Below are positions 27,624 through 30,858 of a stretch of 64,000 nt of DNA, in pieces (position 1 is the first letter of the stretch; each line of letters opens with the position of its first letter). The DNA lies in contig JAGWLG010000006.1 in the NCBI GenBank assembly GCA_028864975.1, positions 32,001 through 96,000 of the forward strand. Direction: 5' to 3'. A program made the position numbers and the translations under genes. This DNA is from Thermoplasmata archaeon. GTDB taxonomy: Archaea; Thermoplasmatota; Thermoplasmata; Lutacidiplasmatales; UBA184. Under the pieces are notes generated by a model, which made no database searches, was not told the DNA's origin, and was given only the letters and a program-made list of their open reading frames with translations.

Positions 27624-28781
27624 ATGAGCCCAAGCACCAAGGAGATCCGCGGCCCTCGGCCCGGTGCCCGTCAAGAGATGGGGAAGAAGTCTGCCGGCGA
27701 GCGGGTTCGCGCCCTGTGGTGGGAGCGGGGCGCGCTACGTGCGATCGACCAACGACGACTTCCGCGCGAGCTCAAGGTCCTGCGGCTCACCAAGGTCGGT
27801 GAGGTCGCCGACGCGATCCGAACGCTCGCCGTCCGGGGAGCACCGACCATCGGGGTCGCCGCTGCGTACGGTATGGTCCTCGCCTCGCACGACCCGCGAT
27901 GGTCCGCCACGACCGCCGCGCGCCTGTTGGGGTCGACCCGGCCGACCGCGCACGACCTGTTCGTCGGCATTGGGGTGGTGCGTCGGGCCTGGGACGAGGG
28001 AGAGGACCTTCTCGGAGCCGCCGAGGGCTATCGCGACGCGGTGGTAGAGGAGTGCAGGGCGATCGGGAGTGCCGGCGCTCCCCTGGTCGCCCCCCATGCT
28101 CGCGTGCTCACGCACTGCAACGCGGGCGCGCTCGCGACGGTCGAATGGGGGACCGCGCTGGCCCCCGTGCGACTGGCGTACCGCGAGGGGCGCGACCCCT
28201 TTGTCTGGGTGGACGAGACGCGCCCTCTGCTGCAGGGGGCGAGGTTGACCGCATGGGAGCTTGAACAGGAGGGCATTCGACATGCCGTGATCGCGGACAA
28301 CGCCGCCGGCCACTTTCTTCATCGACGCGAGGTGGACCTGGTCATCGTGGGTGCCGACCGGATCACCCGTTCCGGCGACTTCGCGAACAAGGTCGGAACG
28401 TACGAGAAGGCCGTGCTCGCCCATGAGAACGGGGTTCCCTTCTACGTGGCGGCCCCTTGGAGCACCTTCGACCCTCGGTTGGAGAAGGGGGAGGACATCC
28501 CCGTGGAGGAGCGCGCCCGCGAGGAGGTCACCACGTGGGGGCAGGTCGTGACCGCCCCCGAAGGCTCTCCGGCCCGGAACCCCGCCTTCGACGTGACCCC
28601 CTCGAGGTACGTGACCGCCTTCGTCACTCCTGCGGGGCTTGTGTCACCGGGGAGGATCTCGTCCCTGCTTCGGGCGCACCGTCCTGAACGCCCGGTCCAT
28701 GAGCACGGGACCCACTTGGACAGCGTGCGGCTGGACCCGAAGGGCGCCGTGCGACCCCGCCGTGCACGCCTTCGGAGCTGA
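27624..28781 (+). CDS. mtnA: S-methyl-5-thioribose-1-phosphate isomerase
   Basis: VRGAPTIG, RPTA, THCNAGALAT, DETRPLLQGARLTAWEL, ANKVGTY, NPAFDVTP. Confidence 0.93.
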   Translation: MSPSTKEIRGPRPGARQEMGKKSAGERVRALWWERGALRAIDQRRLPRELKVLRLTKVGEVADAIRTLAVRGAPTIGVAAAYGMVLASHDPRWSATTAARLLGSTRPTAHDLFVGIGVVRRAWDEGEDLLGAAEGYRDAVVEECRAIGSAGAPLVAPHARVLTHCNAGALATVEWGTALAPVRLAYREGRDPFVWVDETRPLLQGARLTAWELEQEGIRHAVIADNAAGHFLHRREVDLVIVGADRITRSGDFANKVGTYEKAVLAHENGVPFYVAAPWSTFDPRLEKGEDIPVEERAREEVTTWGQVVTAPEGSPARNPAFDVTPSRYVTAFVTPAGLVSPGRISSLLRAHRPERPVHEHGTHLDSVRLDPKGAVRPRRARLRS

Positions 28782-28786
28782 GCGCG

Positions 28787-29518
28787 ATGCCGACCGACGA
28801 GGACTTAGGGGCCCCGCCGAACGCGACGGAGACCTCTGCGGACGGGCTCGACGCGGCGCCCGGACGCCGGCGCTCCGTCCTGGACCCCGTCGTGGAATAC
28901 TACTCCGCCCGGACCGAGGGGGACCTCCCATGGGAGAGCGGTGACGCGTACCTCCTGGGACAGCTGGGTCGTGCCGCGATCGTCGTCCTTGCCTCGTTCG
29001 GGCTCCTCTACCTTCTGTCCCCTGTCGCGATCCTCGGCACAGGGGCGGCGCTCCGGGTCGGCGTCTCGCTCTGGGGCACCGCCGTCTTCGTCGTGCTTTC
29101 TGTGGTGGCCGCCGTGCTCCTGATCGCGACCGCCCTGTTCGTGGCAAGGTGCCGAAGTCTCCTCTCCCACGCCATGATCCTTCAGACGGACGTCCCGTGG
29201 AGGGAGATGGTGCTGGAAACGGGGAAACGGCTCAAGGCCCTTGGGGTGAAGGCCAAGCGGACACGTCTGCGGGAGCGGGGCCTCGTCGTGGGCTACCGGT
29301 TTCCGGTCCGTTCCGACCTCGCCCCGCTCAAGGTTCTGGGCTCGCCCCTCGGATACATCACGTGGGGTGGCGCGAAGAGCCTCCTCGTCGTTCCCCTCCC
29401 CCTCTTTCGGAACGCTCGCTGGGGCCAGGACATCGACCGCATGGTGCGGGATGTTCTGGCGTGGGAGAGGCCGGACCGGGTCCGGACGCCAGCCACCGCC
29501 TCCTTGGATGAGGAATAG
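28787..29518 (+). CDS. Hypothetical membrane protein (2 TM plus soluble C-domain)
   Basis: Two long hydrophobic segments; starts 5 nt after mtnA stop. Confidence 0.65.
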   Translation: MPTDEDLGAPPNATETSADGLDAAPGRRRSVLDPVVEYYSARTEGDLPWESGDAYLLGQLGRAAIVVLASFGLLYLLSPVAILGTGAALRVGVSLWGTAVFVVLSVVAAVLLIATALFVARCRSLLSHAMILQTDVPWREMVLETGKRLKALGVKAKRTRLRERGLVVGYRFPVRSDLAPLKVLGSPLGYITWGGAKSLLVVPLPLFRNARWGQDIDRMVRDVLAWERPDRVRTPATASLDEE

Positions 29519-29569: not shown

Positions 29570-29674
29570 CGCCCCGATCGGGAGTCTCCGAAGGCGGTTA
29601 GGACCGCCGCCCTCCTTTGAACCCGAGCCCACGGCTCGACAGACCGTGATCCTAGACCACTAGACTATCGGGGC
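29570..29674 (-). tRNA. trnD: tRNA-Asp(GTC) with a 32-nt intron at position 59/60 (intron 29584-29615)
   Basis: Minus strand: GCCCCGA TA GTCT AGTGGTCTA GGAT C ACGGT CTGTCGA GCCGT GGGC TCGGG TTCAAA [GGAGGGCGGCGGTCCTAACCGCCTTCGGAGAC] T CCCGA TCGGGGC G. All four stems pair, discriminator G73, no encoded CCA, BHB motif at the junctions. Confidence 0.93.
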
Positions 29675-29700
29675 GCGAGGCCGCGCAGCCTCACGGACCA

Positions 29701-29706
29701 TAATAA
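29701..29706 (-). promoter_or_regulatory. TATA box (TTATTA) of tRNA-Asp
   Basis: 27-32 nt upstream of tRNA position 1. Confidence 0.65.
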
Positions 29707-29896
29707 GGCCTACGAAGGACATCGATGCGCTCCGCCGACGGTAGGACCCCGAGACGTCGCACGGACCCGTCTCGGACCGCGGCGACGGAGCCGGGGGTTG
29801 AACGGTGGGACGGCCGCGGAGGAGTCCTGCGAGGTCTCGGTTGCCGGTCGAGAAGCCCAGAACCCGGGCCGGAGGAGGATGCAGAGGGGCGGCGTC

Positions 29897-30313
29897 CTAC
29901 GGGAACGAGGGGCTTGCATCCACCTTGAGCGCGTCCTCAGGGTTCTCCAAGGTCTTCTGCGGAGCGACCTTGCGGGGAGCGAGCAGGGAAGGGCTCGCGT
30001 ACCCCGCAGAACGAGCAAGGTCGGGGTGCTTGAGCATGAGTTCGGCCCAGCTCCCGTAGGTTTGCAGGCGGGCGAGCAGCGGGGCGTGGCCGCGGCGTTG
30101 CTCGATCACCGAGTGCACGACCAAGGGGCTAGCCCCCTCCGTCCGGTAGAGCGTGCGGTGGACCGTCAGGGATGCCCCCGTGGGTGGTGGAGAAAGCTCC
30201 GGTCCCGGGTCCACCGGGTCGCTCGCCAGCTGCTCGCCGTCAAGCTCGACGCTGCGGAACGCTTGGCCGTCCGACGTGAAGAACCCGACGGGAAGTCGGT
30301 GGTGTTCGCTCAT
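29897..30313 (-). CDS. Hypothetical protein
   Basis: 138-aa ORF; ATG overlaps the upstream gene stop (ATGA), GGAG-type RBS upstream. Confidence 0.65.
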   Translation of the reverse strand: MSEHHRLPVGFFTSDGQAFRSVELDGEQLASDPVDPGPELSPPPTGASLTVHRTLYRTEGASPLVVHSVIEQRRGHAPLLARLQTYGSWAELMLKHPDLARSAGYASPSLLAPRKVAPQKTLENPEDALKVDASPSFP

Positions 30314-30858
30314 GGTTGTTCCTCTTCCTCGCCCTGGACCTCCTCGATCACGCAGGAAGCGCCGCGTGGACGCCAGGAGGCAGGGCCTCCTGGACTGTCG
30401 GGGACGGCCACCACCTTGATCGGCGGGGTCCGAGGGAGATGCTCAGGGATGGGTGGAGGTCGAAGGAGCTCTCGATGCGAGCTCGCTCGTCGTGAGGCTC
30501 GGGAGGGGAGGGCGCGGCCACCCGCGGCGAAGAGGTCCTGCATCCGCTCGATCGGCAGAGGAGAAGGCGCGGTACGCTCGGTCCGACGGGCCGAAGAACG
30601 GGTGTATGGCTCGATGCCAGACGGCCACGATGGGACGAGGGACCAACCTCCCATGACCGGCATCAGAGCGGGCAGGCGGACCGAGGGCGTGGAAGCTCGC
30701 AGCATGCAGAGCGATCCGTGCGCGAGCGGCTCTTCCGGAAGAGGAGCGGCCACCACGCTTTCGCAGTAGAAGCAGTAGAGGTTCTCGAAGCTCTCGCGCC
30801 GAGTCTGCTCCCCACCGCACTGTGGACACACCCTGGATCCTGGTTCGGTTCTCGACAT
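30310..30858 (-). CDS. Zinc-ribbon protein with Pro-rich C-terminus
   Basis: N-terminal CPQC...CFYC; translationally coupled to next gene. Confidence 0.65.
   Translation of the reverse strand: MSRTEPGSRVCPQCGGEQTRRESFENLYCFYCESVVAAPLPEEPLAHGSLCMLRASTPSVRLPALMPVMGGWSLVPSWPSGIEPYTRSSARRTERTAPSPLPIERMQDLFAAGGRALPSRASRRASSHRELLRPPPIPEHLPRTPPIKVVAVPDSPGGPASWRPRGASCVIEEVQGEEEEQP

What the first reader, a model, noticed from the sequence alone, without database searches (positions are those of the whole stretch)
29570..29674. tRNA-Asp(GTC) with a T-loop intron at non-canonical position 59/60
Seen: a full cloverleaf interrupted after TTCAAA by 32 nt. The junctions form a bulge-helix-bulge: T-stem, bulge AC|T, central helix TTCA:GGAG (one A-G mismatch, one G-U), bulge AA|G, then an 8-bp intron stem GAGGGCGG/CCGCCTTC. 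A TATA box sits 27-32 nt upstream. Established: most euryarchaeal and Thermoplasma introns lie at 37/38; T-loop introns are known mostly from Thermoproteales and some DPANN, which carry broad-specificity (alpha-beta)2 or epsilon2 endonucleases. Inference: this lineage has a relaxed splicing endonuclease or acquired the intron by transposition. Standard scans may miss or mis-call this gene.
Basis: partly seen in the sequence, partly recalled or inferred. Interest (0 to 1): 0.8.

Follow-up and report, generated by a model that had tools for sequence, protein, structure and literature searches.

The report
Aspartate tRNA gene with T-loop intron
This is a real and apparently the only aspartate tRNA gene of an uncultured Thermoplasmata archaeon, split in its T-loop by a 32-base intron of a known kind that proteins cut out; its whole family carries about ten such introns per genome, yet encodes only the cutting-enzyme type that reviews describe as limited to the standard intron position.

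Summary
On the minus strand, window 29674 to 29570, lies a 105-nt tRNA-Asp(GUC) gene: a 59-nt exon 1, a 32-nt intron exactly between positions 59 and 60, and a 14-nt exon 2. The junctions fold into a 3-4-3 bulge-helix-bulge (BHB). ARAGORN mis-calls the gene and the Rfam tRNA model scores it below threshold.

The intron is present in every genome examined of the same family. Across 42 distinct sequences the intron sequence diverges but its pairing is kept by compensatory changes. An A/T box sits at -37 to -27. No second tRNA-Asp gene was found, so a pseudogene is very unlikely.

The genome has one 374-aa alpha'2-type EndA with no insert where the Crenarchaea-specific loop would sit, plus RtcB ligase.

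The gene is one of nine 59/60-intron tRNA genes in this genome. A covariance model finds 4-13 such introns per genome in this family and 0-4 in 28 other Thermoplasmata families. In about 20 other families tRNA-Asp has an intact T-loop, so the Asp intron is a lineage-specific gain.

Earlier agents of this scan reached the same reading on other tRNA genes of this genome. It is a new member of a known intron kind. The interest lies in the enzyme context.

The parts
29570..29674 (-). Whole tRNA-Asp(GUC) gene, 105 nt (pre-tRNA body from G1 to discriminator G73; no encoded CCA)
   Evidence: Sequence read. After removal of the intron, ARAGORN calls a 74-nt tRNA-Asp(gtc). Acceptor, D, anticodon and T stems are 100% paired in 42 orthologues.
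29616..29674 (-). Exon 1, 59 nt: positions 1-59, ending UUCAAA (U54-A59)
   Evidence: 100% identical over 59-60 nt in orthologues of three other genera.
29584..29615 (-). Intron, 32 nt, between tRNA positions 59 and 60
   Evidence: Orthologous introns of 28-34 nt sit at the same site with divergent sequence and conserved pairing.
29570..29583 (-). Exon 2, 14 nt: U60, T-stem 3' strand CCCGA, acceptor 3' strand UCGGGGC, G73
   Evidence: Acceptor pairs 5:68 and 7:66 covary with exon 1 across genera (UA/CG and GC/AU).
29618..29621 (-). BHB central helix H, 5' strand (U54 U55 C56 A57)
   Evidence: Pairs with GGAG at 29586-29589. Across 42 sequences the 57 partner pair is G-C 30, A-U 1 and A.G 11.
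29586..29589 (-). BHB central helix H, 3' strand (GGAG, inside the intron)
29615..29617 (-). 5' bulge A58 A59 | G; predicted cut after A59
   Evidence: Fixed geometry relative to the helices. The bulge reads AA|N in every orthologue listed.
29583..29585 (-). 3' bulge A C | U60; predicted cut before U60
   Evidence: The bulge reads (A/U)(C/A/U)|U in every orthologue listed.
29590..29614 (-). Intron hairpin h': 8-pair stem (29607-29614 with 29590-29597) and 9-nt loop
   Evidence: minimum-free-energy fold. All 8 pairs show changes on both sides among orthologues.
29700..29706 (-). TATA-like box TTATTAT at -32 to -26 from the mature 5' end
   Evidence: A conserved A/T peak at -37 to -27 in 39 orthologous loci.

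Best explanation
This is a functional, probably essential tRNA-Asp(GUC) gene whose T-loop is interrupted between positions 59 and 60 by a 32-nt archaeal intron that proteins remove.

The proposed pathway is as follows.
1. The gene is transcribed from a TATA-box promoter.
2. In the precursor, the universal T-loop bases U54-A57 pair with four intron bases (GGAG). Together with the T-stem on one side and an intron hairpin on the other, this forms a 3-4-3 bulge-helix-bulge.
3. The genome's single alpha'2 splicing endonuclease cuts in both bulges, after A59 and before U60.
4. RtcB joins the exons. This restores the canonical T-loop UUCAAAU, and CCA is then added.

Shown here: the motif, its conservation and covariation, the promoter box, the enzyme genes, and the lack of another Asp gene. 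Inferred: that cutting and joining occur in vivo, and that the alpha'2 enzyme is the one that does it.

The intron is a lineage-specific gain. It belongs to a family-wide multiplication of introns at this one site.
For: - Exact BHB geometry, and a canonical cloverleaf after removal of the intron.
- Present in 25 of 25 loci and 30 of 30 loci of the family, and 54 of 54 family genomes match exon 1.
- In 42 distinct sequences, 92.8% of cells are paired, against 30-58% when partners are slid. Cells with a change on both sides number 134, against 53 in shuffles (0 of 500 shuffles reach this). All 8 h' pairs and H pair 57 covary.
- Exons are nearly invariant while introns diverge.
- Conserved A/T box upstream.
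- The gene lies in an intergenic gap between two plus-strand ORFs.
- No other Asp gene was found: ARAGORN, Rfam tRNA, BLAST.
- One alpha'2 EndA with the Y/H/K catalytic residues aligned, and RtcB.
- Among metagenome contigs, 4 carry these exons with an intron and 0 carry them joined.
- A Ferroplasma alpha'2 enzyme cuts minimal BHB substrates (PMC8707768).
Against: - There is no RNA evidence of the spliced product.
- In this genome H has only three standard pairs (one is U.G) plus an A.G mismatch, and the thermodynamic fold leaves H open.
- A. fulgidus alpha'2 EndA hardly cut a BHB placed in a D-loop (PMC3241643), and reviews state that alpha'2 enzymes act at the canonical position (PMC4090602, PMC5829648).
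- The assembly is 89.6% complete, so a second Asp gene could be missing.
Confidence: 0.9

Rival explanations
1. The gene is real and spliced, but only because this lineage's alpha'2 endonuclease has evolved a broadened specificity by some means other than the known CSL or ASL loops. It would be functionally like (alpha-beta)2 or epsilon2 enzymes. This is the nearest form of the first reader's idea that the data still allow.
For: - A. fulgidus alpha'2 EndA barely cut a BHB in a D-loop until the CSL was grafted in (PMC3241643).
- The family has 4-13 T-loop introns per genome, and D-loop introns were seen by eye.
- H carries a conserved A.G mismatch in 11 of 12 sequences that have A57.
- A sister family has 10- and 14-nt introns at 59/60 with no real h' helix, which is a bulge-helix-loop form.
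- The protein is 374 aa, against 289-305 aa for the solved alpha'2 enzymes. It has an N-terminal extension and an insert of about 30 aa in the first repeat.
Against: - There is no insert at the CSL site.
- Homologous long alpha'2 proteins (36-41% identity) occur in sister families and in one more distant family whose tRNA-Asp has no T-loop intron.
- The motif here is 3-4-3, which all EndA types are reported to cut (PMC8707768).
- 59/60 introns with perfect H helices occur at 1-3 per genome across many Thermoplasmata families.
Confidence: 0.25
2. It is a pseudogene: a tRNA-Asp gene inactivated by a 32-bp insertion and neither spliced nor used.
For: Standard tools score it poorly. There are no RNA data.
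Against: - The insertion is kept at the same site in all family genomes examined, across seven genera. Its pairing is kept through compensatory changes and the exons are near-invariant.
- The promoter box is conserved.
- No other Asp gene was found in this genome.
Confidence: 0.03
3. ARAGORN's reading is right: a 90-nt tRNA-Asp at 29584-29673 with a long extra arm and no intron.
For: One search reports it. The end of the intron (UCGGAGAC) loosely resembles the true acceptor 3' strand.
Against: - That reading needs a mismatched acceptor stem and an atypical long variable arm for Asp.
- In the genera with acceptor GCCCUGG, the intron ends CCGGAAC or CCGAAAC and cannot pair with it. The true exon 2 covaries with exon 1.
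- The spliced form gives a perfect 7-bp acceptor, a 5-bp T-stem and the T-loop UUCAAAU.
Confidence: 0.01

Closest known systems
59/60 introns of Candidatus Micrarchaeum acidiphilum ARMAN-2: pre-tRNA-Pro(GGG) (53/54 and 59/60, strict hBHBh') and pre-tRNA-Cys(GCA) (59/60, 13 nt, relaxed hBH), Fujishima et al. 2011, PMC3239211
   Same: The insertion site in the T-loop is the same. The BHB logic is the same: T-loop bases form half of the central helix. The intron is short.
   Different: ARMAN-2 is a DPANN archaeon with a three-unit epsilon2 endonuclease that carries a specificity loop. Here the organism is a Thermoplasmata archaeon with a plain alpha'2 enzyme. The tRNA is Asp and the intron is a 32-nt strict-type motif with an 8-bp hairpin.
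Non-canonical BHB introns of Thermoproteales and other TACK archaea (Marck and Grosjean 2003 and Sugahara et al. 2008, as cited in PMC6379350 and PMC3239211)
   Same: These are introns removed by proteins at many positions, including the T-loop. They have multiplied within a lineage, and transposition has been proposed as their origin.
   Different: Those lineages have (alpha-beta)2 enzymes with the Crenarchaea-specific loop, many relaxed motifs, and up to three introns per gene at scattered sites. Here the multiplication is concentrated on one site, 59/60.
Canonical 37/38 BHB introns of Euryarchaeota cut by alpha'2 EndA (A. fulgidus 1RLV/2GJW, T. acidophilum 2OHC)
   Same: The enzyme architecture, catalytic residues and 3-4-3 motif are the same. 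This genome also has such introns in tRNA-Trp (107 nt), tRNA-Met and tRNA-Tyr.
   Different: The position is in the T-loop instead of the anticodon loop. The outer helix h is the T-stem, not the anticodon stem.
Methanopyrus kandleri pre-tRNA-Glu(UUC) D-arm HBh' intron (Kaneta et al. 2018, PMC5829648)
   Same: It is a euryarchaeal non-canonical intron handled by an enzyme that lacks a specificity loop.
   Different: The M. kandleri enzyme is (alpha-beta)2, the intron is relaxed and lies in the D-arm, and it is cut inefficiently in vitro.

Membership tests
Archaeal BHB (endonuclease-spliced) tRNA intron | Two 3-nt bulges on opposite strands, separated by a 4-bp helix and flanked by helices h and h', with the splice sites two nucleotides into each bulge | tested here: met
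   Geometry is exact relative to the exon boundaries: h 5 bp, H 3 pairs plus A.G, h' 8 bp. H has 4 of 4 pairs in 31 of 42 orthologues.
Archaeal BHB (endonuclease-spliced) tRNA intron | Removal of the intron restores a canonical cloverleaf with conserved tRNA bases | tested here: met
   ARAGORN calls a 74-nt tRNA-Asp(gtc) on the spliced sequence. T-loop UUCAAAU, G73 and G10:U25 are present.
Archaeal BHB (endonuclease-spliced) tRNA intron | The helices of the motif are supported by covariation among relatives | tested here: met
   15 of 33 pairs show changes on both sides, including all 8 h' pairs. Covariation score 0.281 against 0.131 in shuffles and 0.05-0.12 when partners are slid.
Archaeal BHB (endonuclease-spliced) tRNA intron | The genome encodes the splicing endonuclease EndA and an RtcB-type ligase | tested here: met
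   EndA at G000:C53. RtcB at G000:C104:51240-52547, 565 bits.
Archaeal BHB (endonuclease-spliced) tRNA intron | The spliced mature tRNA exists in cells | not testable with these tools
   No RNA data. Indirect only: 0 joined-exon and 4 intron-containing metagenome contigs.
Lineages with broad-specificity endonuclease ((alpha-beta)2 or epsilon2) | Separate alpha and beta subunit genes, or a three-unit epsilon protein | tested here: not met
   There is one gene, with two PF02778 and two PF01974 domains in a 374-aa protein. No other match was found in the genome. The assembly is 89.6% complete.
Lineages with broad-specificity endonuclease ((alpha-beta)2 or epsilon2) | A specificity loop (CSL/L1 or ASL/L2) inserted next to the active site of the catalytic unit | tested here: not met
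   The segment FGSKIGERLELSL aligns without a gap to wild-type A. fulgidus YGSEKGDLVTLSL, and is about 10 residues shorter than the AFU-CSL chimera 3P1Y (site from PMC3241643). This is a sequence alignment only. No structure was made.
alpha'2 homodimeric EndA (Euryarchaeota Cluster II) | A tandem of a degenerate repeat and a catalytic repeat in one chain, with the catalytic Tyr, His and Lys in the C-terminal repeat | tested here: met
   Pfam domains N-C-N-C. Full-length alignment to A. fulgidus 1R0V at E 1.8e-25 with Y, H and K aligned. NCBIfam PRK09300 models match, but below their equivalog cut-offs.
tRNA pseudogene | Loss of constraint on the gene, and a functional copy elsewhere | tested here: not met
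   Exons are near-invariant, stems are 100% paired, the promoter is conserved and no second copy was found.

The most novel reading that the evidence does not exclude
Thermoplasmata carry T-loop (59/60) introns as a class-wide habit, and one family has multiplied them to about ten per genome, including in tRNA-Asp. Yet they have only an alpha'2 endonuclease without any known specificity loop. If this enzyme alone removes them, including the 10-14-nt loop-type introns of a sister family, then the accepted rule does not hold. That rule says endonuclease architecture or a specificity loop decides whether introns can live outside the anticodon loop. The concentration on a single site would then point to another driver. 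One candidate is that any intron ending in the complement of the universal UUCRA T-loop sequence can form a cuttable motif in any tRNA, which would make 59/60 a universal landing site for intron spread.
Probability: 0.55. Interest if true: 0.65.

Novelty: new member of a known kind. Interest (0 to 1): 0.5.

Why it matters
- **Annotation.** In this family the only tRNA-Asp gene, and about eight to twelve other tRNA genes, are missed or mis-bounded by standard scans. As a result, MAGs of these abundant soil, peat and mine-drainage archaea look as if they lack essential tRNAs.
- **Biology.** Reviews tie non-canonical intron positions to (alpha-beta)2 or epsilon2 endonucleases with specificity loops, and describe alpha'2 Euryarchaeota as having only 37/38 introns. 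This family gives a clean natural counter-example with strong comparative support.
- **A system to test the coevolution model.** It offers one enzyme, many substrates, and sister families with and without the Asp intron.
- **Intron gain.** The family jumped from 0-4 to 4-13 introns at one site, which makes it a useful case for studying how tRNA introns are gained.

Tried and rejected
- ARAGORN with introns allowed on the whole genome gave about 70 obviously false calls with introns of hundreds to thousands of bases. I did not use it.
- My loose T-arm scan without tRNA-body filters gave 396 mostly false candidates. Adding U8, A14 and acceptor filters left 8 true genes and 1 false one. Gly(UCC) was missed only because of a distance bound, and was recovered.
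- Automated removal of D-loop introns for Lys, Arg(GCG) and Pro(UGG) gave ambiguous boundaries. Those introns are reported only as seen by eye.
- A fuzzy-regex search timed out.
- The full-length fold of the precursor does not give a cloverleaf, and the minihelix fold does not form H. I treat thermodynamic folding as uninformative for BHB motifs, not as evidence against.
- The similarity test among the nine introns gave 5 of 36 pairs at p 0.05 or below. I judged this too weak to claim transposition, because hairpins with a G-rich arm and a C-rich arm resemble each other anyway.
- Literature searches for T-loop or non-canonical tRNA introns in Thermoplasmata or Thermoplasmatota found no paper describing them in the held library.
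- The metagenome scan for joined exons found nothing.
- Flanking ORFs 28787-29518 and 29798-30769 have no Pfam match.

Full report
**1. What is in the sequence**

The feature lies on the minus strand. Read 5' to 3' from window 29674, it has these elements:
- acceptor GCCCCGA, then U8 A9;
- D-arm GUCU / AGUGGUCUA / GGAU, then C26;
- anticodon arm ACGGU / CUGUCGA / GCCGU, with anticodon GUC;
- variable region GGGC;
- T-stem UCGGG, followed by UUCAAA;
- 32 nt that do not belong to a tRNA (window 29615-29584);
- U, CCCGA, UCGGGGC and G73 (window 29583-29570).

Taking out the 32 nt gives a perfect 7-bp acceptor stem, a 5-bp T-stem and the canonical T-loop UUCAAAU. ARAGORN then calls a 74-nt tRNA-Asp(gtc). 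The insertion lies between positions 59 and 60, and the boundary cannot slide because the flanking bases differ.

**2. The junctions form a bulge-helix-bulge**

Relative to the splice sites the geometry is exactly that of the archaeal motif:
- outer helix h is the T-stem (5 bp);
- central helix H is U54-A57 with intron GGAG (U.G, U-A, C-G, A.G);
- the 5' bulge is A58 A59 | G;
- the 3' bulge is A C | U60;
- inner helix h' has 8 pairs, one of them G.U, closed by a 9-nt loop.

In a permissive scan of the neighbourhood this candidate (H 3, h 5, h' 8) was the best of about 110 by summed helix length.

Standard tools do fail on the gene:
- default ARAGORN reports a wrong 90-nt gene at 29584-29673;
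- Rfam finds nothing at gathering score;
- Rfam's tRNA model scores 20.2 bits against a cut-off of 29 in the permissive search.

The nearest-neighbour fold of the T-arm minihelix forms h and h' but not the weak H helix. I note this as a caveat.

**3. Organism and context**

The window is part of a 3.61-Mb assembly. It has 67% G+C, 124 contigs and is 89.6% complete. The closest relatives of its endonuclease gene are all MAGs titled Thermoplasmata archaeon.

The gene sits in an intergenic gap between two plus-strand ORFs, 28787-29518 and 29798-30769. TTATTAT lies at -32 to -26.

**4. Comparative evidence**

*Presence in the family.*
- BLAST of the 105-nt gene found a full-length or exon-1 match in 24 of 24 other genomes of the same family, across seven genera.
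- All 25 loci, including the window's own, carry an insertion of 28-34 nt at 59/60.
- A second sample gave 54 of 54 family genomes with exon 1.
- All 30 loci fetched from that sample again have the intron.

*Covariation.* I aligned 42 distinct sequences (A1). Exons are nearly invariant and introns diverge. I then counted pairs for the full precursor structure:
- 92.8% of cells are paired, against 30-58% when partners are slid by 1-3 columns.
- 134 cells have changes on both sides, against 53 in shuffles. None of 500 shuffles reaches that.
- All eight h' pairs show double changes.
- H pair 57:partner is G-C in 30 sequences, A-U in 1 and A.G in 11.
- Two acceptor pairs covary between exon 1 and exon 2. 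This excludes ARAGORN's alternative 3' end.

*Promoter.* An A/T-rich box is conserved at -37 to -27. It is 74-92% A/T at -32 to -28, against a background of 15-28%.

*Copy number.* No other tRNA-Asp was found in the genome.

*Metagenomes.* In 241 million metagenome records, four contigs carry these exons separated by 24-40 nt and none carries them joined.

Together these results make a pseudogene very unlikely.

**5. The splicing machinery**

The genome has one endonuclease gene (G000:C53; L001:1447-2571, minus strand; 374 aa). It has two tRNA_int_endo_N and two tRNA_int_endo domains. This is the alpha'2 homodimer architecture.

- It aligns over its length with A. fulgidus EndA (E 1.8e-25), with the catalytic Tyr, His and Lys aligned.
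- Its best solved relative is the fused M. kandleri enzyme 5X89 (E 3e-34).
- The Crenarchaea-specific loop that confers broad specificity was grafted into A. fulgidus EndA at E174-L178 (PMC3241643). At that site this protein aligns to the wild-type turn without a gap and lacks the roughly 10 extra residues of the chimera.
- RtcB ligase is present.
- Homologous alpha'2 proteins of about 350-377 aa occur in sister families and in a more distant family.

It is also not needed. The motif is of the strict 3-4-3 type, and the alpha'2 enzyme of Ferroplasma cuts minimal BHB substrates without a tRNA body (PMC8707768).

The literature does say that alpha'2 and alpha4 Euryarchaeota have introns only at the canonical position (PMC4090602). 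It says that only (alpha-beta)2 and epsilon2 enzymes handle introns outside the anticodon loop (PMC5829648). A. fulgidus EndA hardly cut a BHB in a D-loop (PMC3241643). That contrast is what makes the case interesting.

**6. Not an isolated gene**

By eye and by three independent scans, nine tRNA genes of this genome have an intron at 59/60: Asp, Asn, His, Lys(UUU), Ala(GGC), Gly(UCC), Ser(GCU), Ser(GGA) and Arg(UCG). Their introns are 28-41 nt.

I built a covariance model of the T-arm with its intron (R1). It finds exactly these nine in the genome at E 4e-5 or better, and the next hit has E 0.94. These nine are training sequences.

Results of the model across 150 Thermoplasmata genomes:

| Group | Matches per genome |
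|---|---|
| This family, 16 genomes (f1) | 4-13 |
| Sister family f2 | 1 |
| f4, f7, f10, f15, f19, f20, f21 | 0 |
| Other families sampled | 1-4, with a few genomes at 0 |

Ten hits outside the family were fetched. Six could be resolved, and these are T-arms with 21-33-nt introns at 59/60 and a perfect 4-bp H. One is a tRNA-Ser(GGA).

The counts are lower bounds. Only 37 candidates per genome were scored, and the model was trained on G+C-rich sequences.

**7. History of the Asp intron**

- In about 20 other Thermoplasmata families tRNA-Asp has an intact T-loop. Four of them have a 37/38 intron instead.
- Within the order, family f2 has no T-loop intron in Asp (3 genomes).
- Family f3 has a 37/38 intron plus very short introns of 14 and 10 nt at 59/60. 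These keep a perfect H helix and the 3' bulge but have essentially no h'.
- The Asp intron is therefore a derived feature of f1, and perhaps of f1 plus f3.
- The cores of the Asp and His introns resemble each other more than shuffles do (p about 0.002 before correction for 36 pairs). This is only a hint of intron transfer between genes.

**8. Mechanism**

*Shown:* the motif, its covariation, the promoter, the enzyme genes, and the absence of another Asp gene.

*Inferred:* the alpha'2 dimer binds the BHB and cuts after A59 and before U60. RtcB then ligates the exons, and CCA is added because none is encoded.

One feature of this site follows directly from the sequences. The 5' strand of H is the nearly universal UUCRA of the T-loop, so an intron ending in its complement plus two bases can form a cuttable motif in any tRNA. 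This may explain why introns accumulate at 59/60.

**9. Comparison with known cases, and novelty**

Introns at 59/60 are documented in ARMAN-2, both in strict and relaxed form and with in vitro cleavage (PMC3239211). They are also documented in Thermoproteales. This intron meets every testable defining feature of that kind.

It differs in lineage and in enzyme context. I found no paper in the held library that describes T-loop introns in Thermoplasmata.

Earlier agents of this scan reached the same reading for other tRNA genes of this genome. I had already identified eight of the nine genes, and I tested the claims independently.

**10. Unpublished genomes**

- The tallies include G042.
- The tally also includes G053 and G065.
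- Two sequences listed (L123, L140) come from G053 and G065.
- These genomes were left out of alignment A1, and no conclusion depends on them.

**Verdict**

This is a real, functional gene: a new member of a known intron kind. The moderate interest comes from the conflict with the accepted link between endonuclease type and intron position.

Noticed in passing
L216-L224 (G000 contigs C32, C38, C59, C93, C97, C100, C104, C119, C50): Nine tRNA genes of this genome carry a 28-41-nt intron at 59/60: Ser(GCU), Lys(UUU), Arg(UCG), His, Ala(GGC), Asn, Ser(GGA), Asp and Gly(UCC). Covariance model R1 finds 4-13 such T-arms per genome in this family and 0-4 in other Thermoplasmata families.
   Followed up: yes
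L143 (G026) and L144 (G028), about 1500-1620 on the minus strand of each locus: In a sister family, tRNA-Asp has a 37/38 intron plus a very short intron of 14 or 10 nt at 59/60. It has a perfect UUCA:UGAA helix and an AA|U bulge but no inner helix, which is a bulge-helix-loop form. These genomes also have only an alpha'2-type EndA.
   Followed up: partly
G000:C38:9218-9363 (+), G000:C32:210148-210260 (-), G000:C44:4196-4306 (-): tRNA-Lys(UUU), tRNA-Arg(GCG) and tRNA-Pro(UGG) appear to carry introns of about 30-37 nt in the D-loop. Lys has both a D-loop intron and a 59/60 intron. My automated splicing did not resolve the exact boundaries.
   Followed up: partly
G000:C115:54062-54164 (-): tRNA-Glu(UUC) with a 28-nt 37/38 intron seems to have the anticodon loop CCUUCGA, that is C33 instead of the nearly universal U33. 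ARAGORN on the unspliced gene calls it Arg(tcg) instead.
   Followed up: no
L111 (G008:C4:91819-91881 region): In another genus of the family, tRNA-Glu(CUC) has a 59/60 intron, whereas the Glu(CUC) gene of this genome (G000:C121:63667-63740) is intronless. The set of tRNAs that carry the intron therefore differs between genera.
   Followed up: no
L001:1447-2571 (-) = G000:C53: The alpha'2 EndA is 374 aa, against 289-305 aa for the solved alpha'2 enzymes. It has an N-terminal extension of about 43 aa and an insert of about 30 aa, rich in Pro, Lys, Ser and Thr, in the first (structural) repeat. T. acidophilum EndA matches it only over the last 87 residues.
   Followed up: partly
G000:C124:18387-18567 (-): tRNA-Trp(CCA) has a 107-nt intron at 37/38. 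This is the size class that in other Euryarchaeota holds a box C/D guide RNA. I did not check it.
   Followed up: no
window 27624-28781 (+), 28787-29518 (+), 29798-30769 (+): Upstream lies an IF-2B family protein (Pfam PF01008, E 8e-66). The two ORFs that flank the tRNA gene have no Pfam match.
   Followed up: partly
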